Shown here one piece after another: positions 11,423 through 44,069 of a stretch of DNA of 46,495 nt (position 1 is its first letter; the number at the start of each line of letters is the position of its first letter). The stretch spans positions 1 to 46,495 of the forward strand of contig LFSG01000004.1 of the NCBI GenBank assembly GCA_001512685.1, given 5' to 3'. A model generated the notes under the pieces. That model saw only the letters and a list, made by a program, of their open reading frames with translations, searched no databases and had not been told where the DNA came from. The stretch is from Clostridiales bacterium DTU072 (GTDB lineage: Bacteria > Bacillota > Clostridia > Christensenellales > DTU072). The position numbers and the translations under genes were made by a program.

Positions 11423-11451
11423 TTGACATTGCGGTTTTTGGGTGTTATACT
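11423..11451 (+). promoter_or_regulatory. Strong sigma-A promoter of ferredoxin
   Basis: TTGACA-17nt-TATACT with TG extension. Confidence 0.8.
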
Positions 11452-11481
11452 AAATAAAAACAAAAAGGAGAATTTATACAT

Positions 11482-11652
11482 ATGGCATATGTAATCAGCG
11501 ATGCTTGCATTTCTTGCGGAGCCTGCGAATCCGCTTGTCCCACCGAAGCCATTTCGGCAGGAGAAACTCAATATGTAATAGATGCCGACACCTGCATAAG
11601 TTGCGGCAGCTGCGCGGAAATATGTCCGCAGGAAGCTATCAGCGAAGAATAA
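11482..11652 (+). CDS. fdx: 2[4Fe-4S] clostridial-type ferredoxin, 56 aa (not in ORF track)
   Basis: MAYVISDACISCGACESACPTEAISAGETQYVIDADTCISCGSCAEICPQEAISEE; two CxxCxxCxxxCP motifs; SD AAGGAG. Confidence 0.96.
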   Translation: MAYVISDACISCGACESACPTEAISAGETQYVIDADTCISCGSCAEICPQEAISEE

Positions 11653-11670
11653 TTTATTAAACCTTATCGA

Positions 11671-11706
11671 GACATCGCCATCAATGATGGCGATGTCGTC
11701 GTTTTA
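11671..11706 (+). terminator. Hairpin after ferredoxin, probable terminator with a weak U-tract
   Basis: GACATCGCCATCA-A-TGATGGCGATGTC followed by GTCGTTTT. Confidence 0.6.
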
Positions 11707-11713
11707 GCACAAA

Positions 11714-13744
11714 ATGAAAAAAGCCTTAACCGAGTTAAAAAAAGCCCTTTTGTTAAAATATGGCGACGAAAGCCTTGCGTTTGAAAGCTATATGAAAGAG
11801 GTTTTTGAAAAATACGACGACATATGGCAAATCTCGGAGGCTTTTTATTTTTATTACGATGAGGAAAGGCGGAAAATCAATAAAGACAAACGGCAGCGCC
11901 AAAGAGTGAAGAGCCATGACCTGCACATCGCCACGCAGTTTTTTACCCCCAAATGGCTGGTGGAATATATAACCGACAATTCTTTGGGCAGGTTTTTGCC
12001 CGATATATCCAAACGCTTCCTTGACGGGGAGCATTTTGTTTGTTCCAAAGAAGTTGTTACCGTTTTCGATCCCGCCGTGGGAACAGGCAACATGCTGGTT
12101 TATGCCTATGATTTGCTGCAAAAGCATTATTTGGCGAAAGGGTTTAAGGCTGAGGATATTCCGCCCTTGATTTTGGATAATTTATACGGTCTGGATATCG
12201 ACGACAGGGCGGTAAGCGTTGCGAAAAAGTTGCTTTTGAAAAAATCGGGATTGAAAAACTTTGATTTCCATATTTATTCTTTTGAAGATATAGACAATGA
12301 CCTTATCGAAAAAGCCGAAAAAGAAGGTTTTGTCCGTTTATCGGAATTTTTGTCCAAGCATAGAAATCTTAAGCAGCTTGGCAGTATAATAAAAGTTTAT
12401 GAGGAATTGGCTGATGACATAGAGCTTTTTATGAGCCGTGTGCAAGAAAAAGAAAAAAATATATTGAAAGCCCTTGCGCTGCTCACAAAAAAATACCATG
12501 TTATCCTGCTCAACCCTCCTTATTTGTCTTCGTCGGATTATAACGAAGTTCTGAAGAGTTATATTTACGCTCATTACGAAAAGTATAAATACGATTTATT
12601 TGCCGTTTTTATTGTCAAAAGCTTGAGCATGCTTGAAAAAGGCGGCTTTATGGGCGTGGTGTGCCCGTATAACTGGATGTTCATAAAAAGCTTTTATAAT
12701 CTTCGCAAATTTATCGTGGACAAAAAGGGCATATTCAATGTGCTACAGCTGTCAAACGCCGCCTACAACCGCGCCGTGGTCTATCTTTCCGCTTTTGTGC
12801 TCTCCGATATTATACCCGAAAAAGGCAGCTATATAAGGCTTACTTCCTTCAAAGGCAAGGAACAGGAACAGAGGGCGCTGGAGGCTGTTAAGCTTCCTAA
12901 GCGGTATAAATACAATATAAGTCAAAATATCTTCAAAAAAACGCCCCTTTATAATTTAATATATTGGACGAACGATAATTTTATCGCCAACTTCTCACAC
13001 CGCAAATTGGGCGAGTTTTTGGAAATAAGGCAGGGCATGGCCACGGGAGACAACAAAAAATTCTTGAGAAAAATAGAGGACATAAACCCAAACGATATAG
13101 CCTTTGAGGCCGAAAGCATTGAACATTTTGACTCTTTGGGCAAAAAATACGCACTTTACAATAAGGGCGGGAAATACCGCAAATGGTACGGCAATGTGGA
13201 ACATGTCATAGCTTTTGATAAAAAAAGCCGAAAACAGCTTCAATCTCAAGGCAACAGAATGCCGTCAAGGCAATATTATTTCAAAGAGTGCATAACTTGG
13301 ACTTTGGTATCCAGTAAAGGCCACTTTGGGGCACGATACAGCAAAAACAGCGTTTTTGATGTAGGGGGCTCCTGCGCTTTTGTCAAGCTCGGCAGTCCTG
13401 TAAGCATTTATGTTTTTTTGGGGTTTTTGTGCAGCAACACCGCAAACTTGTATCTTAACGCCTTAAATCCCACCCTCAACGCCCAAGTGGGAGACATAAA
13501 AAACTTGCCTTTTCTCGTTCCCGACGAGAAAAGCCAAACCGAGATAGAAGCGCTTGTAAAAGAGAATATTGATATCGCGCAAAGAGATTGGTATAATAAA
13601 AGCCATAAAAATGATTTCGGCAAAATGAAAGCCAATGAAGAAAGAATCAACGAGATATTTATTAAGCTGTATAAGCTGGAAAAGCTGCTTAATAAATCCG
13701 TACCCGATAATTTGATAACATTAAGGAGGGATAATGAAGAATAA
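11714..13744 (+). CDS. N6-adenine DNA methyltransferase, miniaturised BREX-1 PglX-like
   Basis: ATQFFTPKWLVEYITDNSLGR, DPAVGTGNMLVYAYDLL (motif I), LYGLDIDDRA, NPPY (motif IV), QGMATGDN, NKGGKYRKWYGN, NPTLNAQVGDI, NEERINEIFIKLY. Confidence 0.85.
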   Translation: MKKALTELKKALLLKYGDESLAFESYMKEVFEKYDDIWQISEAFYFYYDEERRKINKDKRQRQRVKSHDLHIATQFFTPKWLVEYITDNSLGRFLPDISKRFLDGEHFVCSKEVVTVFDPAVGTGNMLVYAYDLLQKHYLAKGFKAEDIPPLILDNLYGLDIDDRAVSVAKKLLLKKSGLKNFDFHIYSFEDIDNDLIEKAEKEGFVRLSEFLSKHRNLKQLGSIIKVYEELADDIELFMSRVQEKEKNILKALALLTKKYHVILLNPPYLSSSDYNEVLKSYIYAHYEKYKYDLFAVFIVKSLSMLEKGGFMGVVCPYNWMFIKSFYNLRKFIVDKKGIFNVLQLSNAAYNRAVVYLSAFVLSDIIPEKGSYIRLTSFKGKEQEQRALEAVKLPKRYKYNISQNIFKKTPLYNLIYWTNDNFIANFSHRKLGEFLEIRQGMATGDNKKFLRKIEDINPNDIAFEAESIEHFDSLGKKYALYNKGGKYRKWYGNVEHVIAFDKKSRKQLQSQGNRMPSRQYYFKECITWTLVSSKGHFGARYSKNSVFDVGGSCAFVKLGSPVSIYVFLGFLCSNTANLYLNALNPTLNAQVGDIKNLPFLVPDEKSQTEIEALVKENIDIAQRDWYNKSHKNDFGKMKANEERINEIFIKLYKLEKLLNKSVPDNLITLRRDNEE

Positions 13745-14813
13745 CGCAACCTACCCCACAAGATTGGCTTTAAGAAAACTGGTCTTGCAAACGATAGGGC
13801 AGAAGGCGAAAAAAAGAAAGCAATTGATAATGGATGTCATAAACAAATGCGGATACGGCAAAGAAGAGCTTAAAGACACCGGAAGCGACAGTCTGTCCAC
13901 AAGACTCAAGAGCTTTACGGGCATAGTCATTAACGAGCTTTTGGAAGAAAAGGCGCTTCTTATGACCGACGATTTCAAAATCGTGTCCGCCGAAAGCTTG
14001 CCCGACAAAAAAGAAATCTTGGAAATATTCTTAAAAAAATATCTTATCGAAGACGAACTGAAGGACAATTCCCCCAGCGGCAAGAAAAATATCATCAAAG
14101 CTGTGCTGGGCGACCTCATTAGGCGCAAGCGCAGCGAGATAGCGAAGGCCATAGACGTCGTCGCCTATCTTGACGAGGAATTGCGCAAAAACGAAACCGT
14201 ATACAATAACATAATCAAGCAAAAAGAAAAATGCTATCCGCAAACGCCGCTGGGCAATAAGCTTAAGCTCATTAATAAAAGGTTCAACGACTGCAAAAAA
14301 GGCGCGCTTAAAAAGGAAATATACCGCAAAGAAGCTCATAAAACGGCTATGGAATGCATCAGCTTGGCGGGCGGCGAATTCTTTGAGCGGTTTTGCATGA
14401 GTCTAATCAAGGCCTGCTACGGCGACAAGGTCATTAAGGACGAATTGACGGCGGGGCCCGGGGACAAGGGCATTGACGGCATTATCATTGTATGTGACGA
14501 AATAGGCTTTAAGGAAAAGATTTTGATTCAGGCAAAGACCAAAAGGAAAAGAGGCTTCATTCCGCTCAGCGAAATAAGAGAATTTTTGGGCGTAATGACT
14601 TCGGAAAACGCCACCAAAGGACTTATGATATCCAACAGCAATTATCATAAAGAAACCGAAAAGTTCGCGTCCAAGGTCAAAAACCTTATATTGATAGACC
14701 AAAAAAAGCTTATCGAGCTTATGGAAAAATATCAGATAGGCTTTGTGAATGAAGACGGCATAATTAAGATTGACGAGGCTTTGTTCCTGGAAGAGCAAAA
14801 GGCCGTTTGTTGA
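13734..14813 (+). CDS. Mrr-family restriction endonuclease (C-terminal Mrr_cat) with extended helical N-terminus
   Basis: FFERFC, GPGDKGIDG, IQAK, IREFLG, KGLMIS, LILID motifs; SD AAGGAGG inside the MTase gene; 11-nt overlap. Confidence 0.85.
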   Translation: MKNNATYPTRLALRKLVLQTIGQKAKKRKQLIMDVINKCGYGKEELKDTGSDSLSTRLKSFTGIVINELLEEKALLMTDDFKIVSAESLPDKKEILEIFLKKYLIEDELKDNSPSGKKNIIKAVLGDLIRRKRSEIAKAIDVVAYLDEELRKNETVYNNIIKQKEKCYPQTPLGNKLKLINKRFNDCKKGALKKEIYRKEAHKTAMECISLAGGEFFERFCMSLIKACYGDKVIKDELTAGPGDKGIDGIIIVCDEIGFKEKILIQAKTKRKRGFIPLSEIREFLGVMTSENATKGLMISNSNYHKETEKFASKVKNLILIDQKKLIELMEKYQIGFVNEDGIIKIDEALFLEEQKAVC

Positions 14814-14818
14814 CAATT

Positions 14819-14848
14819 AAAAAGCCGCCCGATATCGGGCGGCTTTTT
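14819..14848. terminator. Bidirectional intrinsic terminator
   Basis: Perfect palindrome AAAAAGCCGCCCGATATCGGGCGGCTTTTT between convergent genes. Confidence 0.88.
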
Positions 14849-27747: not shown

Positions 27748-28218
27748 ATGGCAAACGAGTATTATTTCAACTCTCCGATAGGATTGTTAAAAATGGAGAC
27801 CGAAAACGGCTTTATCGTTTCCTTGCGCTCCGTCGCCTCTATGCCCCGCGATTTTTCGCAAAGCTCTTTGGACGATATCGCGCTTAAAGCTTTTAGTCAA
27901 TTGAAAGAATACTTTAACGGCCAAAGAAAGTATTTTGATTTGCCCATAAAAGCGGAAGGCTCTCCTTTTTGCCGAAAAGTGTGGCAACAGTTAAGAAAAA
28001 TACCTTACGGCAGTACGGCAAGTTATTCTGATATAGCGTCGCTGGCGGGAAATCCCAAAGCCGCAAGAGCGGTGGGAAGGGCTTGCAATAAAAACCCCGT
28101 TTTGATACTTATCCCTTGCCACAGGGTTGTGGGCAAAAACGGAAATCTTACCGGATTCGCTTGCGGCGCAGACAAGAAAAAATTGTTGCTTGATATCGAA
28201 ATTAAAACTCGTTCATAA
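27748..28218 (+). CDS. ogt: Methylated-DNA--protein-cysteine methyltransferase
   Basis: IPYG, ARAVG, IPCHRVV active site. Confidence 0.95.
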   Translation: MANEYYFNSPIGLLKMETENGFIVSLRSVASMPRDFSQSSLDDIALKAFSQLKEYFNGQRKYFDLPIKAEGSPFCRKVWQQLRKIPYGSTASYSDIASLAGNPKAARAVGRACNKNPVLILIPCHRVVGKNGNLTGFACGADKKKLLLDIEIKTRS

Positions 28219-28933
28219 ACCATCTGTACTTTTTGGGGGCGTAATGTCTTTGCAATACGGGATTATGCCTTTCTTCTATTGAAACATTATTGAAATACTC
28301 CCTCCACAGCTCGGCGAACTTCAGCTGGTCTTCGCTTAAGGCAACAGTGAATCTTGGGGGAGCGGTAAAAGTATAGCTTTTGTCGCCGTCATAGTAGGCC
28401 ATCTTTTTTCTTTTCAGGTCGTGCAATACAAATTTCTGGTCGTTGAACCTTATTCTGAAATGAGGAAGCAGCAATTCCAAAATATCGTTGTCGGGGCCGA
28501 AGAAAGCGTAATATACGCCGTTTTCCGTTTGGGCGAAACGAATAAACCCCTTCATTCTGTGAGCTTCCCTGCGCACTTTGTTTAACATATCCCTGAAGGC
28601 TATCACCGTTGAGTGGGAAAAAAGTGTAAGTGCTTTTTTGCCTTGAGCAAAAAGCAATTTAAGGTAATCAAAGAGCTTTTGCTCTTTATTTTTGTCGCCG
28701 CTTAAATACGCGTCGGCAATTTCTTTATACGCCGTTTTCCCTGCTTTTTTCATTATGCCTTCTCTGACCTTTGCGGCCAGCGCGGTATCCGTTTCAATTC
28801 TTATGCCATAGTCAAGCATTGTTACGCTTTCGGCGTCCGAGGTAATCTTTTCGGCGTCCTTATGCCCGTAATAGGCGTGATAGACGGCGGTAAGAAAAGC
28901 CGCCAAATTGTTTTCGACGACAAGTATTTTCAT
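28202..28933 (-). CDS. TIGR03915/DUF4130 putative DNA metabolism protein
   Basis: EAHRMKGFIRF, HF..RF..Q.F..HD..R, LW..YF..V.I.ER.N..LQ...PK.Y; coupled to the radical SAM gene. Confidence 0.88.
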   Translation of the reverse strand: MKILVVENNLAAFLTAVYHAYYGHKDAEKITSDAESVTMLDYGIRIETDTALAAKVREGIMKKAGKTAYKEIADAYLSGDKNKEQKLFDYLKLLFAQGKKALTLFSHSTVIAFRDMLNKVRREAHRMKGFIRFAQTENGVYYAFFGPDNDILELLLPHFRIRFNDQKFVLHDLKRKKMAYYDGDKSYTFTAPPRFTVALSEDQLKFAELWREYFNNVSIEERHNPVLQRHYAPKKYRWFMNEF

Positions 28934-30207
28934 TATAATTCCCCCGTTATGATATCGGTAAGCGGCCGCTCGGCGTCAAAAAGACTTGTTTGCAGACAAG
29001 CCGTTTCCAAGCGCGGCCGCTCCTGTTGCGCGGCAAGCGCTTTTCTGATGTTGACGGGATTGTTATATGCGCCGTAAAATTTGCCGTTTACGGTGATAAA
29101 ATGTTGCGCTCTTTTTAATACCACCCGCATTTTTTTAAGGCTTTCAAAGGTTAATTTGCCGTGTCGTCTGGCTATAATTATTCTGTAAGCGTTCTTTACG
29201 CCTATTCCCGGCACTCTGAGCAGCGCTTCGTAGCTTGCGGTATTTATTTCAACGGGAAAGAATTGATAATTATTCAGCGCCCAAAAGCTTTTTACATCTA
29301 TGTCGGCGGCAAGGTTGCGCTCAACGGGCAGCAATTCCTCGGCGGAAAAGCCGTAAAACCTCAGCAGCCAATCGGCTTCGTACAGTCTGTGTTCTCTTCT
29401 TAAGTCGCACGGCAAGGCGGGCAATAAGCTTGAGGACAAATTTACGGGCATGTAAGCGGAATAATAAACCCTTTTTAAGTTAAAATTCCGATACAGCGCT
29501 TGCGTCAATCTTATTATTTGTCCGTCGGTATCGTTTGAGGCGCCCACTATCATTTGCGTGGTTTGGCCTGCCGGGATTTTTTTGATTTGGGAATTTTTTT
29601 CGGTTTTTGTAAGGAAATAGCTTTGAGAAAGCATCTTCATGGGCTCTATTATGGCGTCTTTCTTTTTTTGCGGCGCAAGCAGTTTAAGGCTTCGTTCGGT
29701 GGGCAATTCAATGTTCAAGCTCATTCTGTCCGCGTACGCCGAGGCATAATCGATAAGCCCATAATCCGCTCCCGGTATGGCTTTAAGGTGAATGTAGCCT
29801 CTGAATTTATATTCTTCTCTCAGCATTTTTACCGCTAAAACAAGCTGTTCCATGGTATGGTTGGGGGATTTCTCCACGCTGCTCGACAAAAACAATCCTT
29901 CTATATAATTTCTGCGGTAAAAGTTTATTACCAATTCGCATAATTCGCGGGGGGAAAGCCGCGCTCTGGGTATGTCGTTGCTTCTTCTGTTTACGCAATA
30001 AAGACAATCGTATTCGCAATAGTTTGTCAGTAGTATTTTCAGCAAAGAAACGCATCTGCCGTCCGAAGTGAAGGAATGGCAAATGCCGCAATAAGCGGTG
30101 TTGCCCAAGCTGCCTTTTTTGGAGCCTGTTCCCGCGCCGCTTGAAGAGCAGGACACATCGTATTTTGCGCCCTCGGTAAGAATTCTTATCCGTTCGTTCA
30201 AATCCAT
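28933..30207 (-). CDS. TIGR03916 putative DNA modification/repair radical SAM protein with HhH
   Basis: AKYDVSCSSSG, GICHSF..DGRC, CEYDCLYC, GQTTQMIVGA, REHRLY.ADWL, LLRVPGIG. Confidence 0.94.
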   Translation of the reverse strand: MDLNERIRILTEGAKYDVSCSSSGAGTGSKKGSLGNTAYCGICHSFTSDGRCVSLLKILLTNYCEYDCLYCVNRRSNDIPRARLSPRELCELVINFYRRNYIEGLFLSSSVEKSPNHTMEQLVLAVKMLREEYKFRGYIHLKAIPGADYGLIDYASAYADRMSLNIELPTERSLKLLAPQKKKDAIIEPMKMLSQSYFLTKTEKNSQIKKIPAGQTTQMIVGASNDTDGQIIRLTQALYRNFNLKRVYYSAYMPVNLSSSLLPALPCDLRREHRLYEADWLLRFYGFSAEELLPVERNLAADIDVKSFWALNNYQFFPVEINTASYEALLRVPGIGVKNAYRIIIARRHGKLTFESLKKMRVVLKRAQHFITVNGKFYGAYNNPVNIRKALAAQQERPRLETACLQTSLFDAERPLTDIITGEL

Positions 30208-30949: not shown

Positions 30950-32879
30950 ATGTTTGAAAATATGCTGAGCAAAGGGAAAATAGGCAAATTGGAAATTAGA
31001 AACCGTTTTGTGGTGCCCGCAATGGGTACGGGCAGAGGCGAATTGGACGGTTTTGTAAACGAAAATATTATAAGCTATTACACCGAAAGGGCTAAGGGCG
31101 GATTCGGTCTGATTATTCTTGAGGTTACCGGCATAGACCCTTTGGGGAAGGCCATACCCGAACAAATTATGATTGACGACGACAAATATATCCCCAAGCT
31201 CAAAGAGCTTGCCGATTCCATACACGCGCACGGCGCCAAGGTTTTTCCGCAGCTGCATCATGCGGGAAGGCAAGCCGTGGAAGCGGTACTGGGCGCTCAA
31301 TCGGTAGCGCCTTCGGCGGTATCCTGTCCCATGACAAGATCCATGCCCCGCGCGCTTACCACAAAAGAATGCTATGAGCTTATAGAAAAATATGGCGACG
31401 GCGCCTATCGCGCCAAAAAAGCGGGGTTTGACGGCGTGGAAGTTCACGCCGCGCACGGCTATCTCGTGGGACAATTCCTTTCGGGCTACACCAATAAAAG
31501 GGCTGACGAATTCGGCGGAACCTTTGAAAGAAGAATAAAGTTCGCGGTGGAGGTTCTCAGAAACATAAAAGCCAAATGCGGAGCCGACTTTCCGGTATGC
31601 TTCAGATTGAGCGCCGACGAAAGAGTGCACGGCGGCTTAAAACCCGCCGAAAGCGCGGCGATTGCCGCCATATTGGAAAAAGAAGGCGCCGACGCCATCC
31701 ATGTTTCAACGGGCGTGTACGGCAGTATGGCTTGGATAATAGCGCCTTCCTCGATAGAGCCGGGATATATTCTTAAAGACTGTTATGAGATTAAAAAGGC
31801 TGTGAAAATACCCGTAATCGCGGTGGGAAGGATAAACGAGCCCTACCTTGCCGAGCATGTGGTAAGCAAAGGCATAGCCGACTTCGTGGCTTTGGGCAGA
31901 GGCTCTATTGCCGACCCTTATTTTCCCTTAAAAGTGAAAGAGGGCAGGGTAAAGGAAATATTGTGTTGCGTAGGCTGTATGACCCGTTGTCAAGGAGTGG
32001 TGGCGGGCAATGAAAAGGACAGGGGGGTTTCCTGCATGGTCAACCCTTTCGCAGGGCAAGAGCATATCAGAAAAATCATACCGACCAATCAACCTAAAAA
32101 TATTGTGGTGGTTGGGGGAGGCCCTGCGGGATTGGAAGCGGCGTGGATACTTGCCGCAAGGGGGCATAAGGTTACGCTTTTTGAGAAGGACTGCCGTTTG
32201 GGCGGACAATTTTTGCCCGCCGCCGTTCCTCCCGGAAAGCAGGCTTTGCTTGCCTCAATCGTTTATTATGAAAAAATGTGCCGTAAATACGGCGTAAAAA
32301 TCCTTACCCAAACCGAAGCTGACGAAAACGCCATACTCGGTTTGAAGCCCGACGCGGTTATATTGGCTACCGGCGCTGTTCCTTGCGGTTGTCAAATACC
32401 TTTCAAAGACATTGCGGTAGTGCAAGCTTTGGATGTTTTGAAAGGCAATGTGCAGCTTGGCAATAATGTTTTGGTGATAGGCGGAGGCCAAGTGGGCGTT
32501 GAAACCGCCGAGCATATCGCCAGCATGAACAGGTGGGTTACCATAGCCGAAATGGAAGACGACATAGGCAAAAAAAATGCCTTCGGCTATAAAATATTTT
32601 GCCATGAAGAGCTTGGCGGATTATAATGTTAAGATTTTGAAAAACACAAAGGTAATAGAAGTGTCCAAGGATGGGGCGCTGTGCGAAACGCCCGAAGGCA
32701 AAAAGCTTATACACGGATTTGATATGGTGGTTCAGGCCATAGGCTCAAAATCGCACAATTCCTTGGAAGAGAAATTGAAGGGCAAAGTTCCGGCTTTATT
32801 CGTAATAGGCGATGCCGCAGAGCCGAGAAGAGCGGTGGAAGCCATTGAAGAAGCCGTTGCAACCGCCTTGGCGTTGTGA
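30950..32879 (+). pseudogene. NADH:flavin oxidoreductase (OYE/FadH/BaiH-like), frameshifted at A8 run 32570-32577
   Basis: QLHHAGR, EVHAAHGYL, CVGCMTRC...C.VNP FeS motif, GGGPAG, GGGQVG; C-terminal IGDA is in the next frame (32577..32879); removing one A fuses the two ORFs. Confidence 0.75.
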
Positions 32880-35606: not shown

Positions 35607-38600
35607 TTATATTTCGTAATAATTTATTTTGTCCGCGATATCTTCGCCATAGCTTATTTCGCTGCCCTCGGGCAATAAGATAAGACCTATTTCGGGTATT
35701 ATGGCGTTTACGGAAATTTCCGCCACTTCTCTGCCTTGAATGTATTGCGGAATATATAGGATATCCACATTTCCTATGTATTGCAATATCCTGACTCTGT
35801 TGTTGGGCATGCTTTCAACGGCGAAATTGCCGAATATCGTATTATGCGTGATTATTTGATTGGCAAATACCGACCATATGGTTTTTTGGCGATAATTAAT
35901 CAAATACTGCGATTCCACAAAAATCTTGAGATGGGGATTGGTGTTCATCAGCATGCTGTTGCCCCCTTCGATTACTCCCGGAGTGTTCAGGCGCAATCTG
36001 AGCAGCGACGAACAGTTTATGAAGGCCGCTTCCTCTATGGCTATTACCGTGGACGGCAAGTCGATTGATTTAAGCGAGCGGCAATTTTGGAAGACGGCGG
36101 TAGGAATAGTCTTGATGTTTTCGGGCAGATTGATTGACCTCAAGCTGACGCAGTTATTGAAAGCGTATCCCTCGATTGTTTCAACGGAAGAGGGCAAAAC
36201 CACCTTTTCCAAAGACACGCAATCGCTGAAAGCGAATAAACTTATTGTTTGCCTGTAGCCTTCAAGCATGGTTACGCTTTTTAGATTGGGATTCCCGAAG
36301 AATCTGCCTATGGACCTTACTTCATAATTTATTCCGCCTATTTCGATGCTGCCCGGTATGATTATATCGGTTTGAGCGCCTCTGTATTGCGTCAAATGGA
36401 TGGAATTGGAACTTAAAATACTGTAAGCGAAATCCCCATGGAATTGATGAGGCAAAATATAGTCAGGGTATATGACGGGATTATAAATTCCGCTTTCGCT
36501 GTAGCCGCCGTAGCTTTTCCAGTTTGCCAAATTGTTTTTGTATTCGGTTAAGCTGTTGCGCGGAACGAATATTTTCAGGAAAGAATTGTTTATGTTGTTG
36601 AACAATCCCGGTCCCGCCGTTGTCAAGCCGTCCGACGTTCTTACTCCGTCGTCGCCTCTCATTACATAAACCGTTTCAAGTCCCGTGCAATAATTAAATA
36701 CGCCGGTCATCAATTGAAGCACGGTAAACGGTATGGTGATTTCTTTTAGGGAATGGCAATGGGAGAAAGCGTAATTGTATATTATATTCAAATTGCCGTC
36801 TTCGGGCAAAGCGATATCCCTAAGGTTGATGTTGTTATGGAAGGCGTAGTCTCCTATGGAGCGCAATCTCTTGGGCAGGGTGATTTCAATAAGCTCGATA
36901 TTGTTGGAGAAAGCGTTTGAGCTTAACACCAGATCGCCCACGGGTTCGCCCTCGATTTCCAATATATCTTCGCCCTCAAATGTTATGGAGCTCAGCATGG
37001 TATCGGCAAAAGCAAAGCTCGCGATGTTTCTTACCGATATGGGTATGGTTATGGATTTGAGCGGAGTATAACGGAAGGCGTTTTGGCCTATGGATTCAAG
37101 AGTTGAGCCCGCCTCAAACATAACTTCCTCTACTCCGCTTTTGTAAAAAGCGTTGGCGGAGATGGTGTTTACGGTGTTGGGAACGGTAACCGTCTTGACA
37201 GCGTAATTAAATACATTGGGAAGTATGGACACTATTTTGTGGCCGTTAATATGCGAAGGCACAATCACATTGATTTCATCGCCCACATAGTGGACAAGCT
37301 CGGCGGTTTTGGCGTCGGGATCTATAACGCTTATGGCAAAGCCGTCAAAAATCATGTCCAAGCTGAATATTTTTGAAACCAAGCTGTTCCAACTGCTTGA
37401 GCTGCTTCTATAATAATTGAGTTTGTAATCCCTGACATATATTTTCGCGTAGTCGCATCCTTCCAAAAGGTCTTGGGCGTCGGCAGCAAGATTTATTATT
37501 GAAGAAGTGGGGGTGTCGTCGTCGATATAAATGGCAAGCAAATAGCGACAGTTTTTGAAAGCCCCTTTGTGTATTGTCTTAAGCCGATTGGGAAGGGTAA
37601 CCGTAACTATATCGGTCAACGCGAAAGCGTTTATGCCTATTGAGGTCATATCCACGCCTAAAAATTCCACATTATTTAATTTCATTCTGTGCGGCAATTC
37701 CGAAGAAAAAGCGTAATTGCCTATGATGTCGGTATTTTGCGGCGCTTTGAAAGAAGTAAGATTTACGCATTTATAAAAAGCGTAATCGCCGATAGTGATT
37801 AATCTGCTTGCGTTTATGGTTAATTCCGCGCCGATGGACACATTCTTTACGGCGGTGCCGTAAAAAGCCGAATTGCCTATGCTGATTAAGCTGAGCGGCA
37901 ATTGCACGCTGTTGAGATTGACGCAATAACGGAAGGCGTTTCGGTTTATGGAAAGCACGCCTTCGGGAACAATAACATTCCTTATTTTATAATTAAAGCA
38001 GTATTCTCCGATTTCCAATACCGGCTTATCGGCAATGACTGCGGGGATAGAAATATCTTGCTGGTCTCCCAAATATTTGTTTAACCTTACGCCTTCTATG
38101 ACAAAAGTAATTCTTTCTATCCTTACGGTGTGCAGCCGATCGAAGGCATCATATACCGTTACGGTCTCCGCCGACAAAGCCGCGTATGATTTGTAATCGG
38201 TTATTTTTGTGGATTGGTTTATTCTGTGGCTGAAGGTTTTGTTTTCCTCATTTATGGTTACGACCGGCAGTTTTAATACCGTTTCCAGCGCGTTGAAGTC
38301 GTTGACATAGCTCTTATCGTATTTATTGTCGGGCAAGGGCAATCCCAAATATTCCACCACTCGAACGGCGTTGTAATTATAATTGATAAGCTCTATCGAA
38401 TAACTGCTGTGCAAAGAGTCCTTGCTGTTGATTTTGGAAGTGATGTTTCTCCAATACCTCGCTTTAAGATACTCTTTCATGGCTTGCTGAGGCACATATA
38501 TCATCAATTCTTCTCTTGTGCCCGCAAAGGTATAGTCGTTTTGTAACTCGGTAATCGCCAAGTCGTCGGCGCCGCGGTTAAGTATAATGCTGACAAGCGA

Positions 38601-41600
38601 TTGGCAATTGTTGAAGGCTCTGGCTCCTAAAAGCTTAAGGCTTTTGGGAAATTCTATGGTATTCATGGCTTGATTGTGCTGGAAGGCGTACGCGCTGACG
38701 GTTTCCAATATGCTGTCGGCGGGGAAAACGGCGTTCCTTAAATTCATCATGTTGTTTTCAAGGCCCGCGAAAGCAAACATGCCTATGTGTCTTAATCTGC
38801 GCGGCAAGCTGATTGTCTCTAAGGAAACGCACAATTGGAAAGCGTAATTGCCTATTGAGGTAAGCAGGCTGTTGGAGCCGAAATTCACATTCCGCAAAGC
38901 CTTGCATTCGTAGAAAGCGTATTCTCCTATTTCTTGCACGCTGTCGCTTATATTAATTGTGGTCAGCGCCGAACAATTATAGAAAGCGTAATCGGATATT
39001 TTAGTGATGCCTTGAGGCAAGGTAATTATTTGCAATATGGAATTGTAGCTGAAGGCGTTGGGGGCGATTTCTTTTACCTTCAATCCCCGCAATGTAACGG
39101 GAATGGCAAGATTTGAGCCAATATCCGCAAGTCCAATATATTTGACTATGCGGCAGCTGTTCGGATCTCCCGGCAATACTTCGATTATGAAGTTTTCTAC
39201 AGAAAGGGAGAAGCTCTTTATATTCGCGGCGTGCCCCCTCCACAGCGGATTTTGTTTGTAAATGAAATCCATTGAGCTGCTTACGAAGAATTCCAAATTC
39301 GGGGAGGTGTTTTCAAAGGTGTTGTCGTATATTCTTACGATGGTAGTGCCCGCTTCGTTGAGATTAAGACCTGTCAAATACTTGTTTCCGCTGAACGCTC
39401 TCGGCCCCAATTCCCTTGTTTTATGGGATATGGCGTAGGTGGAGCCCTGTTTGCCGGCGGGGTACAGTATAAGCATTTCGTCTTCGGAGTATACTTTTCC
39501 GTCGCCGTAATCCACATTGCCGGTGTACAATACATCGTTAATGGTTCGATAATAAGGATTGTTTATGTCCACATTAAGCATGGAAAGATTATTGCATCCG
39601 TAAGCGGGCGCGTCGCCGATTAAGGAAACCATCTTCAGCGACAGCGAGGTCAAGCCGGCGCAATCGGCAAATACATAACTGCCCAGCGTATACTCGTCGT
39701 CGCTTGTTATTTCCACATTTTGCAGCGAAGAGCATCCATAAAAAGCCATGTCATCTATTAGAGTAACGGTGTAAGGAATGCGCATAAAGGTTATTCCTTT
39801 GCAGCCGTAAAAAGCGCCTTGCCCTATCGTCAACAAACCTTCGTTAAGGATTATGTCGGTATAGCTTGAAGTATCCTTAAAGGCATAATCGCCTATTGTC
39901 TCGACATTCAAAGGCAATTCAACCCGTCTGTCTTCGTTATACGCAAAGTAATCATATCCTACAAGCGCGCCAAATTCCATGCCGCTGTCCGCGATTTCGG
40001 CGCTTCCGATATTGCTGAACGCGCCTTCCATTATTACAGAGCAAAGCGCGCCTTCTTCAAAGCTTATCAGCACAAGATTGGGGTTGTTGCTGAAAGCGTA
40101 AGCGCCGATTTCCGTTACCCTTTTGGGTATGACGACATTTGACAAATTGGTATTTTCAAAACAGCTTTGACCTAAAATAAGCTCTTTTTGGCTGTCTTCA
40201 AAAACTAAATCTTTACGGTAAGCGATAACTTCATTGCCGCCGTCATTCATTTTGAGCGCGGCGCTGCCCAGAGAGCTGTTATAAAACGCATGGCTGTCGA
40301 TAAATACCGTTCTGGCGGGAATAACGAAGGAGTCTATGGAAGAGCAGGCGCTGAAAGCGTACTTTCCGATAGTTAAATCCATATCCCCGTCGGTGAAATC
40401 AATATTGAATATATTTTTGCAGCCGTAAAAGGCGTAATCTCCTATCAGCGTAAAATGCGCGGGAATGGTTACCTGCCTGAGTTCGTTGCATCCGATAAAC
40501 GCGCCTTGGCCCAGCGATACGCCTTCGGGATTGTAAACCGTTCCGTCCAATTCCTCAAAAACCGCTTTTTCCAGAGAGGTATTATAATAAAATACATTTT
40601 CGCCCATGGAAACAAGCCTTGACGGAATAGTGATTTCATAAACGAAATGGCAATTGTCAAACACATACGAGCCCAGCTCAAGAGGCAAGGAGCTTTGAGT
40701 GAAGTCAATGTTTTGCAAGCTTACGCACAACGAAAAAGCGTAGTCGCCCAAATACGCCAGCCGGGCGGGCAGCTCTATTTGGGCAAGCGCTGAGCATTCG
40801 GCGAACGCATGGCCTTCTATGTTCAGCGGCAGCTCGATTTCGGAAGCTTGTTCAAAAACTATATTGGTTAAACTGTAGCATTTTTCAAAAGCGCCCACGC
40901 CTATTAAGGACACCCTTTCGGGTATGGTTATTTCGGCGGCGGGGACGGCCGAAAAAGCGTAATCGCCTATGGTAAGGGCGTTTTCGTTATCCGTGTCGGG
41001 CTGCAAGGCTATTTGCCTTAGTATGGCGTTATTGTAAAAAGCAAAATTGCCTATTTGCTTTACTCTTGGAGAAATAACGACTTCGGTCAGATAATTGCAT
41101 TGAGCGAAAGCGTAATCGCCTATGCTTATTTGGGTTTCCGAAGGGGCAAAGGTAAGTCTCGTTATTCTTGAGCTGTTGAAAGCGTGAGGAGCTATGGCTT
41201 CCACATCTTGAGCGACCGCAAACGCCGTTTGTATACCGGTAGGGAACAAAGCTATTGTTTTGGGCGAAGATTTTGTATAAAGAACATTGTAGTTTCCTTG
41301 TTCCGATTGTACGGCGGTAAAATTGGGATTATCAGCGCTTACTGTAAAGAATACCAAGCTCTGGCAATTTGTGAAAGGATGGCCTTCAAAAGTGGTTACC
41401 GAATCGGGCAACACAAAATTGGTAAGCTTGGAACATCCCCTGAAGACATTGCTTTTTAATACGGTCAGCGTGGCGGCGGCCGTATTTATTACTCTCAATG
41501 AAACGCATTCGGCAAAAGCCTCTTCTTCAATAGTGGTAACATGTCTGGGGATAACCACATTGTCCAATTGCGAGCAGCCGAAGAAAGCTCTTCTACCCAC

Positions 41601-44069
41601 TATCGTGGTATTGGGGAACAATACTTGTTTTGAGGTGTCCGATTCATGGCTGGTAAGCCTTATGCAGCCTTCAAAAGCCGATTCGCCTATTATGGATATG
41701 TTGCTGTCCGACACCTGCGTGCCCGAAGATACCGTGGCAAGGTATATGCAGCCGTAAAAAGCGTAATCGCCTATCTTAATTACCGTGGACGGTATGATGA
41801 TATTGGTCAAATTTATGCAGCCATAAAAAGTGTATGGCTTGATTTCCCTTAAAACATTGTTAAGCGCCACTATGGTAACCCTTAAGCTTCTGCAATTGTA
41901 AAAAGCTTCTTCGCCTATGTCGCTCACTCTTTCGGGAACTTGAAATTGTTCAAGATATATGCAGTTCTTAAAAGCGCCTTTTCCTATGCGCTCCAGTCGC
42001 CTCACTCCCGATATGTCGGAAACAATCGCGACGGTGGTAAGCTGCATAAACAAGCTTTCGTCCTCGGGAGCGGAAAAGGCGTAATCTCCCAAGCTTATCA
42101 AGCTTGAGGGAAGATATACGGTTCTTGTGTTGTAACAGCCGTAAAACGCGTAATCTCCGATTTCGGTAAGCCTGCTTCCGTCCACATCTATTTCAAGCAG
42201 CATTTGACGGCAATTTTTGAAAGCGCCTTCGCCTATGGTAATTACCGAAGACGGTATTCTTGCCGAGGACAATAAAGTACAGTCATTAAAAGCGTAATCG
42301 CCTATCGCTTCCAGCCTGTTGCCAAAAGATATATTGCGAAGCGCCATAGGCCTGCCGTTAATTCCGCTGAAGGCGTAATCACCTATGGACAGCAGCATTT
42401 CAGGAAAGCTCCAACTTGTAAGGCTTACGCATCCCGCAAAGGCGTATTCGTTTATGTAAGTCAATTGAGAATAACCGATAAAATCAATGGTCATAAGATT
42501 GGGCATATTGTACATGCCGTAAGCTTGTATCTCGTTTGTGGCGCCCGACAAGGTTATGCGCGTAAGCATACTGTTGTTTCTGAAAGCGTTTACGCCGATT
42601 TTCGTGGTTATCAGCGGCACGCTGTAGGTCGTCGCTTTTTTGTTCGGAAAGCATATAAGAGTGGTGCCGTGGTCGGAGAATATGACGCCGTCCGTTTCCA
42701 CGTAATGGGGGTGTCCGTCTTCAACGGCGAATTCCTCAAGGCTGCTGTCTTCAAACATCTTGTAGTTTACTTCCTCAAGAGAGGCGGGAACGGTAAAGGA
42801 AGTCAAATATCGCGTTCCTTTGAAAACGGCGTCGCCCAAATGAGAAAGCCTGCTGCCTATGGGCATCAGCACATAAGAAAGACTCATTTCCACATTTGCG
42901 GGCAAATCAATGGCGGCAAAAGCCAAATCGCCGATATATTCAACGCTTTGGGGGATATATAGGCCGTTTAGGCTATGGCAATTCATAAACGCCGCGTCGC
43001 ATATCTTTTTTAAAGAAGGATTGTCCATAAAAGTAATCGACGTAAACGAAGGCGCGCCCGAAAAAGCCATCGAGCCTATGTATTCGATTGTGTCCGAGAT
43101 ATGTACGGTATTAAGGTATTCGGACTTAAATACCATGTGTCTGTCTTTTTCTTGAGGGGTGGTTAATTGGGAATAAGGCGTGTCGTAGCCTATATACTTA
43201 ACGGGCAAGCCTTCTATTTCTTCGGGGATAAGCATGTTGGTTTGATATTGCGCCACCCTTGTCAAGCCGGTTATTCTTATGGCGTTATCCGTTCCGCCCG
43301 CATAATCTGCCGTTTCGTATACAAAAAGTTCCCCGATTTCGCTTTCGCGCACCCACCACGCGTAAAGCGTGATGTCAGCCGAAGGCATGACATTGGGGAA
43401 AACATAGGGCGATGTGAATTCAGGGTCGGTAAACCAACCGCCGAAAATAAAATTATGCCGTTCGGGATTGTCGGGTTTTTGGTATGGCTGACCGCCGAAT
43501 TCAGTAACTACGATGGGAGGGGTTTGATCGTCAATAATAAAAGTCATGGTAAACGGCTTTTGGGTATACACGGCGTCAATAACGAGATCTTGCGTAACTC
43601 GGTCCAAAGGCACATTGTCCAAATCCCAGCTGCCTATATAACCCGTCCTTTCGGGAACGGAGGGAATGTGCGGCGTAAGAGGCTGGCCGTATATTATCGT
43701 CCTGTATATGTAACTGTATGAGCTTTCATTGGGCAGCTTGGCGCGAAAGGTTACCGTAAGCTCCCGCGGTAGCCACTTTGCGTATAATGTGATGCTTCTG
43801 TCCGGTACTACGCTGAAATCAAAAACCTGTGTCCTTTCCGCATCCGTATACCAGTTATCGAAATAAAACCCTTCTTTGACGGGATCGTTGGGTCTGGGCA
43901 CTGATTCCATGGAACTGTCTATGGAAATATCTCTGATGGGAGAACCGCCGTCGGTATCAAAGCTCACTTTAATTCCGCCGGCGCTACAGCCGGTAACGAT
44001 TATCATTAACACAGACGCCAACAGAAGAATAAATGTTATGCGGGACAGCTTATCGCGGTAAGAAATCAT
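35607..44069 (-). CDS. Giant (2820 aa) BspA-type LRR_5 surface lipoprotein with N-terminal InlB B-repeats
   Basis: Lipobox IVTGC; GFYFDNWY..ITLYAKW and GGWF..ITLYAWW InlB B-repeats; dozens of I.IP..V..IG..AF..C..L repeats; SD AAGGAG. Confidence 0.92.
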   Translation of the reverse strand: MISYRDKLSRITFILLLASVLMIIVTGCSAGGIKVSFDTDGGSPIRDISIDSSMESVPRPNDPVKEGFYFDNWYTDAERTQVFDFSVVPDRSITLYAKWLPRELTVTFRAKLPNESSYSYIYRTIIYGQPLTPHIPSVPERTGYIGSWDLDNVPLDRVTQDLVIDAVYTQKPFTMTFIIDDQTPPIVVTEFGGQPYQKPDNPERHNFIFGGWFTDPEFTSPYVFPNVMPSADITLYAWWVRESEIGELFVYETADYAGGTDNAIRITGLTRVAQYQTNMLIPEEIEGLPVKYIGYDTPYSQLTTPQEKDRHMVFKSEYLNTVHISDTIEYIGSMAFSGAPSFTSITFMDNPSLKKICDAAFMNCHSLNGLYIPQSVEYIGDLAFAAIDLPANVEMSLSYVLMPIGSRLSHLGDAVFKGTRYLTSFTVPASLEEVNYKMFEDSSLEEFAVEDGHPHYVETDGVIFSDHGTTLICFPNKKATTYSVPLITTKIGVNAFRNNSMLTRITLSGATNEIQAYGMYNMPNLMTIDFIGYSQLTYINEYAFAGCVSLTSWSFPEMLLSIGDYAFSGINGRPMALRNISFGNRLEAIGDYAFNDCTLLSSARIPSSVITIGEGAFKNCRQMLLEIDVDGSRLTEIGDYAFYGCYNTRTVYLPSSLISLGDYAFSAPEDESLFMQLTTVAIVSDISGVRRLERIGKGAFKNCIYLEQFQVPERVSDIGEEAFYNCRSLRVTIVALNNVLREIKPYTFYGCINLTNIIIPSTVIKIGDYAFYGCIYLATVSSGTQVSDSNISIIGESAFEGCIRLTSHESDTSKQVLFPNTTIVGRRAFFGCSQLDNVVIPRHVTTIEEEAFAECVSLRVINTAAATLTVLKSNVFRGCSKLTNFVLPDSVTTFEGHPFTNCQSLVFFTVSADNPNFTAVQSEQGNYNVLYTKSSPKTIALFPTGIQTAFAVAQDVEAIAPHAFNSSRITRLTFAPSETQISIGDYAFAQCNYLTEVVISPRVKQIGNFAFYNNAILRQIALQPDTDNENALTIGDYAFSAVPAAEITIPERVSLIGVGAFEKCYSLTNIVFEQASEIELPLNIEGHAFAECSALAQIELPARLAYLGDYAFSLCVSLQNIDFTQSSLPLELGSYVFDNCHFVYEITIPSRLVSMGENVFYYNTSLEKAVFEELDGTVYNPEGVSLGQGAFIGCNELRQVTIPAHFTLIGDYAFYGCKNIFNIDFTDGDMDLTIGKYAFSACSSIDSFVIPARTVFIDSHAFYNSSLGSAALKMNDGGNEVIAYRKDLVFEDSQKELILGQSCFENTNLSNVVIPKRVTEIGAYAFSNNPNLVLISFEEGALCSVIMEGAFSNIGSAEIADSGMEFGALVGYDYFAYNEDRRVELPLNVETIGDYAFKDTSSYTDIILNEGLLTIGQGAFYGCKGITFMRIPYTVTLIDDMAFYGCSSLQNVEITSDDEYTLGSYVFADCAGLTSLSLKMVSLIGDAPAYGCNNLSMLNVDINNPYYRTINDVLYTGNVDYGDGKVYSEDEMLILYPAGKQGSTYAISHKTRELGPRAFSGNKYLTGLNLNEAGTTIVRIYDNTFENTSPNLEFFVSSSMDFIYKQNPLWRGHAANIKSFSLSVENFIIEVLPGDPNSCRIVKYIGLADIGSNLAIPVTLRGLKVKEIAPNAFSYNSILQIITLPQGITKISDYAFYNCSALTTINISDSVQEIGEYAFYECKALRNVNFGSNSLLTSIGNYAFQLCVSLETISLPRRLRHIGMFAFAGLENNMMNLRNAVFPADSILETVSAYAFQHNQAMNTIEFPKSLKLLGARAFNNCQSLVSIILNRGADDLAITELQNDYTFAGTREELMIYVPQQAMKEYLKARYWRNITSKINSKDSLHSSYSIELINYNYNAVRVVEYLGLPLPDNKYDKSYVNDFNALETVLKLPVVTINEENKTFSHRINQSTKITDYKSYAALSAETVTVYDAFDRLHTVRIERITFVIEGVRLNKYLGDQQDISIPAVIADKPVLEIGEYCFNYKIRNVIVPEGVLSINRNAFRYCVNLNSVQLPLSLISIGNSAFYGTAVKNVSIGAELTINASRLITIGDYAFYKCVNLTSFKAPQNTDIIGNYAFSSELPHRMKLNNVEFLGVDMTSIGINAFALTDIVTVTLPNRLKTIHKGAFKNCRYLLAIYIDDDTPTSSIINLAADAQDLLEGCDYAKIYVRDYKLNYYRSSSSSWNSLVSKIFSLDMIFDGFAISVIDPDAKTAELVHYVGDEINVIVPSHINGHKIVSILPNVFNYAVKTVTVPNTVNTISANAFYKSGVEEVMFEAGSTLESIGQNAFRYTPLKSITIPISVRNIASFAFADTMLSSITFEGEDILEIEGEPVGDLVLSSNAFSNNIELIEITLPKRLRSIGDYAFHNNINLRDIALPEDGNLNIIYNYAFSHCHSLKEITIPFTVLQLMTGVFNYCTGLETVYVMRGDDGVRTSDGLTTAGPGLFNNINNSFLKIFVPRNSLTEYKNNLANWKSYGGYSESGIYNPVIYPDYILPHQFHGDFAYSILSSNSIHLTQYRGAQTDIIIPGSIEIGGINYEVRSIGRFFGNPNLKSVTMLEGYRQTISLFAFSDCVSLEKVVLPSSVETIEGYAFNNCVSLRSINLPENIKTIPTAVFQNCRSLKSIDLPSTVIAIEEAAFINCSSLLRLRLNTPGVIEGGNSMLMNTNPHLKIFVESQYLINYRQKTIWSVFANQIITHNTIFGNFAVESMPNNRVRILQYIGNVDILYIPQYIQGREVAEISVNAIIPEIGLILLPEGSEISYGEDIADKINYYEI

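What the first reader, a model, noticed from the sequence alone, without database searches (positions are those of the whole stretch)
11714..14813. Stand-alone mini-PglX methyltransferase coupled to an Mrr-family nuclease: candidate undescribed two-gene defence or R-M system
Seen: a 676-aa MTase with intact motif I (DPAVGTG) and NPPY overlaps by 11 nt a 359-aa nuclease gene whose SD (AAGGAGG) lies inside the MTase gene. A strong terminator closes the pair. The flanks are ferredoxin and ilvE, and no brxA/B/C, pglZ, brxL, hsdR, integrase or transposase occurs in the 46 kb. Established: the motifs ATQxFTPxW...NSLGR, GxATGDN, NKGG.xRKWYGN and NEExxNxxFIxxY are characteristic of BREX-1 PglX, which normally works with BrxC/PglZ, and Mrr usually cleaves methylated DNA (type IV). 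Inference: a BREX-derived specificity/methylation subunit has been paired with a PD-(D/E)xK (D..QxK) nuclease. Possible modes are a split type IIG-like R-M system, an MTase-targeted nuclease, or a guard nuclease triggered by phage inhibitors of the MTase.
Basis: partly seen in the sequence, partly recalled or inferred. Interest (0 to 1): 0.8.

Follow-up and report, generated by a model that had tools for sequence, protein, structure and literature searches.

The report
Orphan mini-PglX methylase beside Mrr-like nuclease
A shortened relative of the BREX methyltransferase PglX and an Mrr-type nuclease sit back to back here, but each is found alone in other genomes, so this looks like a pairing confined to one genus and not a new, widespread defence system.

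Summary
There is a 676-aa gamma-class N6-adenine methyltransferase (MTase) at 11714-13744. A 359-aa Mrr_cat nuclease follows at 13734-14813 with an 11-nt overlap, an internal Shine-Dalgarno (SD) site and a shared terminator. Ferredoxin and ilvE flank the pair. No PglZ or BrxC was found in the 97%-complete genome.

- **MTase.** It is a PglX core (MTase domain, target-recognition domain (TRD) and spacer helices). It belongs to a distinct clade of about 36 proteins. In this family of Clostridia it always follows a ferredoxin gene. Its TRD is unusually conserved, which is the pattern of an orphan MTase.
- **MTase partners.** Outside the window's genus the gene downstream is a GNAT acetyltransferase, not a nuclease.
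- **Nuclease.** It has a winged helix, a helical linker and a D..QxK domain. Of 34 loci encoding full-length or contig-truncated relatives, 29 have no PglX-like MTase in the fetched flanks. Pfam found no DNA MTase within 3 kb of the 26 loci scanned, and the neighbours are housekeeping genes.
- **Where the pair occurs.** It is found only in the window's genus (5 of 5 other genomes). There a conserved TGgTATAAT promoter-like site for the nuclease lies inside the MTase gene.

Best reading: an orphan MTase next to an autonomous, probably type IV-like nuclease. A newly formed R-M pair is not excluded.

The parts
11423..11451 (+). Sigma-70-type promoter of the ferredoxin gene (TTGACA-17-TATACT with TG). 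It is probably the main source of transcripts entering the MTase gene.
   Evidence: 11 of 12 matches. Metatranscriptome contigs of 4 runs begin at 11461-11471.
11482..11652 (+). 56-aa 2x[4Fe-4S] ferredoxin gene, the conserved upstream neighbour of every mini-PglX gene examined.
   Evidence: A homologue lies directly upstream in 14 of 14 family loci that include upstream DNA. Fer4 families were found for the L059 homologue.
11671..11697 (+). Hairpin with a 12-bp stem and a weak T-run, 17 nt before the MTase ATG. Probably a leaky terminator or attenuator.
   Evidence: RNA-library contigs run across it (X15 11461-11975, X16 11462-11871, X18 11467-12003).
11714..13744 (+). Mini-PglX: a gamma-class N6-adenine DNA methyltransferase made of a helical linker, MTase domain, TRD and spacer helices. 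No good SD precedes the ATG.
13569..13597 (+). Promoter-like site inside the 3' end of the MTase gene (TTGATA-17-TATAAT with an extended -10 TG), about 135 nt upstream of the nuclease ATG.
   Evidence: 11 of 12 matches plus TG. TGGTATAAT is identical in 6 of 6 loci of the genus and is present in 0 of 8 MTase genes from other genera at the same codons.
13723..13729 (+). Shine-Dalgarno sequence AAGGAGG of the nuclease gene, inside the MTase gene.
   Evidence: Purine-rich SD-like sequences sit at the same place in the 5 congeneric loci.
13734..14813 (+). Mrr-family nuclease: winged helix (about residues 6-89), helical linker (92-212) and PD-(D/E)xK D..QxK domain (213-350).
14819..14848 (.). Two-way intrinsic terminator shared with the converging ilvE gene.
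   Evidence: 13 pairs, 8 G-C, flanked by an A-run and a T-run.

Best explanation
Two genes that work on their own have come to lie next to each other in one genus.

(1) The MTase is an orphan, chromosomally inherited N6-adenine DNA methyltransferase. It is a PglX/MmeI-type core with MTase domain, TRD and spacer helices. It lacks PglX's N-terminal helical bundle and its C-terminal region. I infer that it acts without BREX partners, methylates one fixed asymmetric motif across the chromosome, and is made at a low level from transcripts that read through the ferredoxin hairpin.

(2) The nuclease belongs to a Clostridia-specific Mrr subfamily (winged helix, linker, D..QxK) whose other members stand alone. 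I infer that it acts autonomously, most likely as a type IV-like restriction nuclease on foreign DNA carrying modifications the host does not make. It would be expressed from its own promoter inside the MTase gene and from read-through.

Shown here: the domain make-up, the distribution across genomes, the synteny, the pattern of conservation, and the presence of both genes in RNA libraries. Inferred: MTase activity without partners, the nuclease's substrate, and the functional independence of the two genes.
For: MTase identity.
- The profile of 31 mini-PglX proteins matches the solved PglX/BrxX structures at chain residues 213-927 of 1205 (E 2e-92). By the domain map in PMC11341690 (passages read) this is the MTase domain, the TRD and most of the spacer helices.
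- NPPY is invariant and D-P-A-x-G-T-G nearly so in 31 sequences.
- The mini clade is monophyletic (support 100/100).

Orphan-like behaviour.
- In the mini clade the TRD is the best-conserved region: mean pairwise identity 57% against 42% for the MTase domain. In 40 long PglX proteins it is the least conserved: 41% against 46%.
- The residue aligned with the Salmonella PglX specificity position T802 is G in 31 of 31 mini proteins and varies (A/S/G/K/T) in the long ones.
- Ferredoxin is always upstream, in 14 of 14 loci.
- There are no BREX genes and no mobile-element genes.

Autonomy of the nuclease.
- 29 of 34 loci with relatives lack the MTase.
- Pfam of 123 neighbouring ORFs found only housekeeping genes (htrA-like, degV, apbE, recN, murB, whiA, cysS) and one tRNA MTase.
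- Residues of the winged-helix region (D48, S53, K59, S60, G63) are invariant in linked and solitary members alike.
- The catalytic residues D244, D248, Q266 and K268 are invariant.
- The catalytic domain aligns with classical Mrr (hhalign probability 99.7%).
- Its best structural matches are AF1548 (Z 14.4), MspJI (Z 12.5) and AspBHI (Z 12.2).

Expression.
- A conserved internal promoter-like site is specific to the genus.
- RNA-library contigs cover the ferredoxin gene and the 5' part of the MTase gene in 4 of 4 runs, and parts of the nuclease gene in 2 of 4.
Against: - The pair has stayed intact in all 6 genomes of the genus while the MTase diverged to 53-57% identity. Four of the 5 relatives keep the same 11-nt junction.
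- The linked MTases and the linked nucleases each form one clade. That fits co-inheritance of a functional unit.
- BREX PglX does not methylate on its own (PMC11341690, passage read), so activity without partners is an assumption.
- The nuclease fold also matches enzymes that cut unmodified DNA: the LlaBIII nuclease domain (Z 10.2), the small subunit of R.BspD6I (Z 9.8) and FokI (Z 8.9). The fold therefore does not show dependence on modification.
- A crude test found no shortage of C5-MTase genes in genomes that carry the nuclease: 4 of 12 against 185 of 401 overall.
- Stable housekeeping synteny is unusual for a restriction gene.
Confidence: 0.5

Rival explanations
1. A newly formed R-M-like pair, either a two-gene type II system or a split type IIG. 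In the ancestor of the genus the orphan MTase became the protective and perhaps the targeting partner of the captured nuclease, which now restricts DNA lacking the MTase's mark.
For: The pair is kept with the same junction in the genus. The linked forms are monophyletic in both trees. An R-gene promoter inside the M gene is conserved 6 of 6. The MTase is the MmeI-like core minus a nuclease domain. Three catalogue pairs share the longest-contig lengths 10285, 20176 and 10224, which suggests further pairs; adjacency there was not verified.
Against: Each gene occurs alone in other lineages. The nuclease's winged helix and the MTase's TRD are not visibly changed in the linked clade. No fused MTase-nuclease form was seen among the 120 listed near-length MTase hits or the 6 longer nuclease hits. 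Overlaps are common between unrelated genes here: 5 of 21 same-strand pairs overlap and 13 of 21 lie 15 nt or less apart.
Confidence: 0.22
2. Neither gene serves defence. The MTase is an epigenetic or housekeeping methylase. The nuclease is a nucleoid-associated DNA-processing enzyme that lies next to it only because of a genome rearrangement.
For: Solitary relatives sit in conserved housekeeping contexts: htrA-like | nuc | degV-apbE, murB-PHP-nuc-whiA, and GNAT-nuc-fdx...cysS. Several carry N-terminal tails of 570-1020 aa rich in Lys, Glu and Ala (also the 6 longer proteins). The N-domain fold resembles linker-histone and other DNA-binding winged helices (Z 7.6-8.1). The genus shows rearrangement: holB-yaaT lies on contig C12 and the GNAT homologue on C20.
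Against: Distribution in the order is patchy: 37 of 401 genomes have any match and 12 have a near-full-length one. The catalytic triad is intact and Mrr-like. Winged-helix Z-scores of 7-9 are generic (note).
Confidence: 0.2
3. A guard nuclease that is switched on when phage proteins inhibit the MTase, or a degenerate remnant of a BREX locus.
For: Only the PglX ancestry of the MTase.
Against: The C-terminal region of PglX that binds Ocr in the PglX:Ocr structure is missing (residues 961-1225). No brx genes are found anywhere in the genome. The MTase clade is intact, conserved and monophyletic, not decaying. The nuclease has solitary relatives.
Confidence: 0.04

Closest known systems
BREX type 1 PglX/BrxX (PDB 8c45, 9ewz, 8zek)
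   Same: Gamma-class order of motifs (GxG then NPPY), a homologous MTase domain, TRD and spacer helices, and the PglX signature motifs.
   Different: About 676 aa instead of about 1200. It lacks the N-terminal helical bundle and the C-terminal region. There is no brxA/B/C, pglZ or brxL in the genome. The TRD is conserved instead of variable. Inheritance is vertical, behind a ferredoxin gene.
MmeI-type type IIG/IIL restriction-modification enzymes
   Same: The same MTase+TRD core (PADLOC REase_MTase_IIG 2.6e-123; Pfam MmeI_Mtase just over its cut-off). The mini-PglX corresponds to the part of PglX that PMC11341690 (passage) describes as MmeI-like.
   Different: No nuclease domain in the polypeptide. 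The neighbouring nuclease is a separate protein with its own winged helix and lies downstream, not at the N-terminus. Most clade members have no nuclease neighbour.
Mrr (type IV, modification-dependent restriction endonuclease)
   Same: Two-part build of an N-terminal winged helix and a C-terminal Mrr_cat domain with D..QxK. The catalytic domains align at hhalign probability 99.7% and 34% identity. Most relatives are solitary.
   Different: The N-terminal 200 residues match neither Pfam Mrr_N nor the Mrr profile. A helical linker of about 120 residues is present. Here an active-looking m6A MTase gene lies directly upstream.
MANTIS/Gao_RL and other BREX-related (BR) systems
   Same: A PglX-related MTase combined with a PD-(D/E)xK nuclease activity (abstract of 10.64898/2026.09.23.753747; passages of PMC12839542).
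   Different: Those systems need AAA+/DUF499 ATPases and a helicase-nuclease. Pfam of the ORFs scanned in this window found no such family.

Membership tests
BREX-1 PglX (NCBIfam NF033452) | Score over the curated whole-protein cut-off | tested here: not met
   459.9 bits against a cut-off of 500.
BREX-1 PglX (NCBIfam NF033452) | Full architecture with N-terminal helical bundle and C-terminal region | tested here: not met
   Only profile positions 223-894 of 1210 and PDB chain residues 213-927 of 1205 are matched. Domain map taken from PMC11341690.
BREX-1 PglX (NCBIfam NF033452) | Encoded together with brxC and pglZ | tested here: not met
   PglZ gave only 20.8 bits, below its cut-off. The BrxC 4th domain gave no match in a 97%-complete genome. 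None was found in the window.
BREX-1 PglX (NCBIfam NF033452) | Gamma-class m6A catalytic motifs and a PglX-type TRD | tested here: met
   DPAVGTG and NPPY are conserved in 31 sequences. The TRD aligns with 8c45 residues 662-849.
Type IIG/IIL (MmeI-like) RM enzyme | Nuclease and MTase in one polypeptide | tested here: not met
   The 676-aa protein has no nuclease domain. No fused relatives were seen (weak evidence).
Type IIG/IIL (MmeI-like) RM enzyme | MmeI-type MTase+TRD core | tested here: met
   PADLOC PDLC03600 2.6e-123. Pfam MmeI_Mtase 29.1 bits against a cut-off of 27.
Mrr / type IV restriction endonuclease | Mrr_cat domain with intact D..(Q/E)xK | tested here: met
   70.4 bits against a cut-off of 21. 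D244, D248, Q266 and K268 are invariant in 16 sequences. hhalign probability 99.7%.
Mrr / type IV restriction endonuclease | Mrr_N winged-helix DNA-binding domain | tested here: inconclusive
   No Pfam Mrr_N match and no profile alignment of residues 1-198. The model nevertheless shows a winged helix at residues 6-89.
Mrr / type IV restriction endonuclease | Cleavage depends on DNA modification | not testable with these tools
   Only indirect: relatives are solitary. The C5-MTase co-occurrence test was uninformative.
Classical two-gene R-M system | R and M genes co-occur and are linked wherever either is found | tested here: not met
   They are linked only in one genus. 29 of 34 nuclease loci and 10 of 10 mini-PglX genomes outside the genus lack the partner.
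Classical two-gene R-M system | Nuclease is toxic without the cognate methylation | not testable with these tools
   Needs expression experiments.

The most novel reading that the evidence does not exclude
A restriction-modification module born from domesticated parts. In one genus of anaerobic-digester Clostridia, an ancient orphan PglX-core methyltransferase captured a normally solitary Mrr-family nuclease. The nuclease gained a promoter and a ribosome-binding site inside the MTase gene. The two now act together, either as a split type IIG-like enzyme or as an M-protected nuclease.
Probability: 0.2. Interest if true: 0.65.

Novelty: new variant of a known kind. Interest (0 to 1): 0.35.

Why it matters
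- It shows that a PglX-type MTase exists as a short, BREX-free, vertically inherited orphan with a conserved TRD. Defence annotators that label such genes as PglX or type IIG would over-call BREX or R-M here.
- It defines an Mrr subfamily with a new N-terminal region that sits in housekeeping synteny.
- The genus-specific pair would be a tractable case for asking whether an R-M-like unit can arise from a resident orphan MTase and a solitary nuclease.
- As it stands the finding is of moderate interest and is not a new defence system.

Tried and rejected
- **Complex prediction** of MTase 40-676 with the nuclease was not available, so physical binding is untested.
- **ESM Atlas** did not hold the window's nuclease. 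The homologue P0011 returned only Mrr_cat clusters.
- **PDB by sequence** with the nuclease profile gave nothing meaningful (best E 0.25).
- **C5-MTase incompatibility test.** I asked whether nuclease-bearing genomes avoid C5-cytosine MTases, as an m5C-dependent enzyme might. The result was 4 of 12 against 185 of 401 in the order sample, no clear difference. The sample is small, the genomes are related, and I picked the 12 by eye from the table.
- **GNAT link.** The GNATs next to the MTase (L059, L060) and the GNATs next to solitary nucleases (L030, L032) are not detectably related (BLASTP E 0.014 or worse), so no three-gene module exists.
- **Metagenome scan with the mini-PglX profile.** Among 79 loci, 1 has the nuclease (probably the same species as G205) and 4 have the GNAT. 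No other locus gave a tblastn match to this nuclease in the fetched flanks of up to 3.5 kb.
- **Earlier scan notes.** Three look-ups found nothing.
- **Literature.** Three searches listed no paper on a PglX-core plus Mrr pair. This covers the held open-access library only. No supplements were opened.
- **RNA contigs** cannot rank expression or prove transcription, and parts of the locus without cover prove nothing.
- **Caveat on gene calls.** ORFs in fetched loci come from my own longest-ORF script, so starts and overlaps are approximate.
Full report
**Observation.** The two ORFs are as described: 11714..13744 (676 aa) and 13734..14813 (359 aa), overlapping by 11 nt. AAGGAGG at 13723-13729 lies inside the first gene. 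A ferredoxin ORF (11482-11652) ends in a hairpin at 11671-11697, only 17 nt before the MTase ATG, and that ATG has no good SD. A hairpin with a 13-bp stem at 14819-14848 closes the pair against the converging ilvE gene. The rest of the window is housekeeping: FeoB, FTHFS, dipicolinate synthase B, AsnB, TyrS, SecA, PrfB, TsaD, SpoIIR, SleB and YpeB. No integrase, transposase, hsdR or brx family was found. The genome holding the window has 1.6 Mb in 63 contigs and is 97% complete. It gave no PglZ match above the cut-off, no BrxC match and no C5-MTase match. It did give one other N6_N4 MTase match on another contig.

**The methyltransferase.**
- Pfam (Eco57I, N6_Mtase, MmeI_Mtase), PADLOC (PglX 7e-139, type IIG 3e-123) and NCBIfam (BREX_1_MTaseX, 459.9 bits against a cut-off of 500) all place it next to PglX. 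They cover only profile positions 223-894 of 1210.
- A profile of 31 close relatives matches the solved PglX/BrxX structures at residues 213-927 of 1205. By the domain map in PMC11341690 (passages read), that span is the MTase domain, the TRD and most of the spacer helices. The N-terminal helical bundle (1-227) and the C-terminal region (961-1225) are missing. This is the part of PglX that resembles MmeI.
- In the protein catalogue, 36 proteins (515-714 aa; two are short or partial) at 39-100% identity stand clearly apart from the long PglX proteins, which reach at most 36% identity.
- In a tree, 15 mini-PglX sequences form one clade with 100/100 support against 10 longer relatives.
- NPPY is invariant and motif I nearly so.

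**Orphan-like features of the MTase.**
- The TRD is the most conserved region of the mini clade: 57% mean pairwise identity against 42% for the MTase domain. In 40 long PglX proteins it is the least conserved: 41% against 46%.
- The residues aligned with the Salmonella PglX specificity positions T802 and S838 are G and N in 31 of 31 mini proteins. In the 40 long proteins the first position varies (A/S/G/K/T) and the second is mostly N with some exceptions.
- In the family, 16 of 80 other genomes have a match. Fifteen of these are the mini type and one is an 866-aa variant.
- A ferredoxin gene lies directly upstream in 14 of 14 loci that include upstream DNA.
- The gene downstream is the nuclease only in the window's genus (5 of 5 genomes). 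In the other 10 mini-PglX genomes it is a GNAT acetyltransferase in 8, often with a 4-nt overlap, and another ORF in 2.
- The nuclease-linked MTases (5 rows) are sister to the GNAT-linked and other MTases (10 rows), each group with 100/99 support.

**The nuclease.**
- Mrr_cat covers residues 214-330. Nothing in Pfam or NCBIfam matches residues 1-200.
- The AlphaFold2 model is confident (pLDDT 87.3, pTM 0.84). It shows a winged helix at about residues 6-89, a helical linker, and a PD-(D/E)xK domain at 213-350.
- The catalytic domain matches AF1548 (Z 14.4), MspJI (Z 12.5) and AspBHI (Z 12.2). It also matches the LlaBIII nuclease domain (Z 10.2), the small subunit of R.BspD6I (Z 9.8) and FokI (Z 8.9). 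The N-domain gives only generic winged-helix matches with Z 7-9.
- Profile comparison with classical Mrr aligns only residues 199-354 (probability 99.7%).
- D244, D248, Q266 and K268 are invariant in 16 relatives.

**Distribution of the nuclease.**
- The scan of one genome per species found 34 loci encoding full-length or contig-truncated relatives, all in Clostridia-like metagenome-assembled genomes (MAGs).
- Only 5 of them carry the MTase upstream. All 5 have the synteny spoVFB/(asnB)-fdx-MTase-nuclease | ilvE-yigZ-tyrS.
- For the 26 other loci scanned, Pfam of 123 flanking ORFs found no DNA MTase. The contexts are htrA-like | nuc | degV-apbE, nadK-argR-recN-nuc-yitT, murB-PHP-nuc-whiA and GNAT-nuc-fdx...cysS.
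- Five relatives carry in-frame N-terminal extensions of 570-1020 aa rich in Lys, Glu and Ala. The six longer catalogue proteins show only Mrr_cat.
- In a sample of 401 genomes of the order, 37 have some match to the nuclease and 12 have a match to the MTase. Besides the window's own genome, only G145 and G205, both of the same genus, have both.
- The linked nucleases form one clade (support 95), together with two catalogue proteins. Those two share longest-contig lengths with mini-PglX proteins.

**Coupling signals.**
- The overlap is weak evidence. In this window 13 of 21 same-strand neighbours lie 15 nt or less apart and 5 overlap. These include unrelated pairs such as dpaB/asnB and yigZ/tyrS (longest-ORF calls).
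- More telling is a promoter-like site at 13569-13597, inside the MTase gene. Its extended -10, TGGTATAAT, is identical in 6 of 6 loci of the genus. It is absent at the same codons in 8 of 8 MTase genes from other genera. The nuclease therefore probably has its own promoter.
- Metatranscriptome contigs at 100% identity from 4 runs start at 11461-11471. That is just after the ferredoxin promoter (11423-11451). In 3 of the 4 runs a contig crosses the hairpin into the MTase gene. Pieces of the nuclease gene occur in 2 of the 4 runs. Contigs cannot prove single transcripts, and DNA carry-over is possible.
- The DNA occurs in anaerobic-digester, biogas, bioreactor and poultry-litter metagenomes.

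**Interpretation.** The simplest account is that an orphan PglX-core MTase, long resident behind the ferredoxin gene, acquired an Mrr-family nuclease gene as its downstream neighbour in the ancestor of one genus. This went together with other rearrangements: holB-yaaT and the GNAT homologue now lie on other contigs. Relatives of the nuclease survive without any linked MTase, and its DNA-binding region is conserved between linked and solitary forms. It therefore most likely acts on its own. A modification-dependent, type IV-like role is the most probable. A nucleoid or repair role is the main alternative.

A true R-M pairing is not excluded. Co-retention in all six genomes of the genus and the embedded promoter speak for it. 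The evidence against it is indirect. The decisive tests are experimental, and the one computational test of binding was unavailable.

**Literature.** I read passages of PMC11341690 (PglX structure), PMC12839542 (BREX diversity) and PMC11090510, and the abstract and outline of the MANTIS preprint 10.64898/2026.09.23.753747. Other titles were seen only in search listings. None describes a PglX-core plus Mrr two-gene unit. No supplements were consulted. The supplementary data of PMC12839542 list auxiliary nucleases at BREX loci and could bear on this.

Noticed in passing
L013:5294-7987, L014:5069-7924, L016:5057-8608, L017:5177-8044, L025:3938-8071: Solitary relatives of the nuclease carry in-frame N-terminal extensions of 570-1020 aa that are low-complexity and rich in Lys, Glu and Ala. 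In L013 and L014 the gene lies just upstream of whiA, and in L013, L016 and L017 just downstream of a PHP phosphoesterase gene. A basic tail plus a winged helix recalls linker histones.
   Followed up: partly
L059, L060, L071-L076, L079, L080, L085-L088: Synteny fdx - mini-PglX - GNAT acetyltransferase is conserved in other genera of the family. It is often preceded by holB-yaaT(PSP1), a homologue of a 151-aa ORF lies next to the GNAT in most of these loci, and the MTase and GNAT genes overlap by 4 nt in several. The window's genome keeps the GNAT homologue elsewhere (contig C20:7982-8521).
   Followed up: partly
window 30950-32626 and 32577-32879: An NADH:flavin oxidoreductase (Oxidored_FMN plus Pyr_redox_2) is split into two ORFs that overlap by 50 nt. 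This could be a frameshift, an assembly error or a pseudogene.
   Followed up: no
window 35607-44069 (-): A 2820-aa ORF with 17 BspA-type leucine-rich-repeat stretches and Listeria-Bacteroides (Flg_new) repeats, probably a giant surface protein. Smaller LRR_5 proteins also flank some nuclease loci (L016, L025).
   Followed up: no
window 27748-30207: A gene with an O6-methylguanine-DNA methyltransferase DNA-binding domain lies next to a DUF4130 gene that abuts a radical-SAM/HhH gene. This may be a DNA-repair cluster.
   Followed up: no
window 11461-11471: RNA-library contigs from four metatranscriptome runs all begin 10-20 nt after the -10 box of the ferredoxin promoter. One carries adapter sequence at position 11462, which fits a transcription start there.
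   Followed up: partly
L023:4276-7932: A 1218-aa ORF with a YDG domain overlaps the nuclease homologue in another frame. Its 3' part is probably a spurious extension made by my ORF caller.
   Followed up: no
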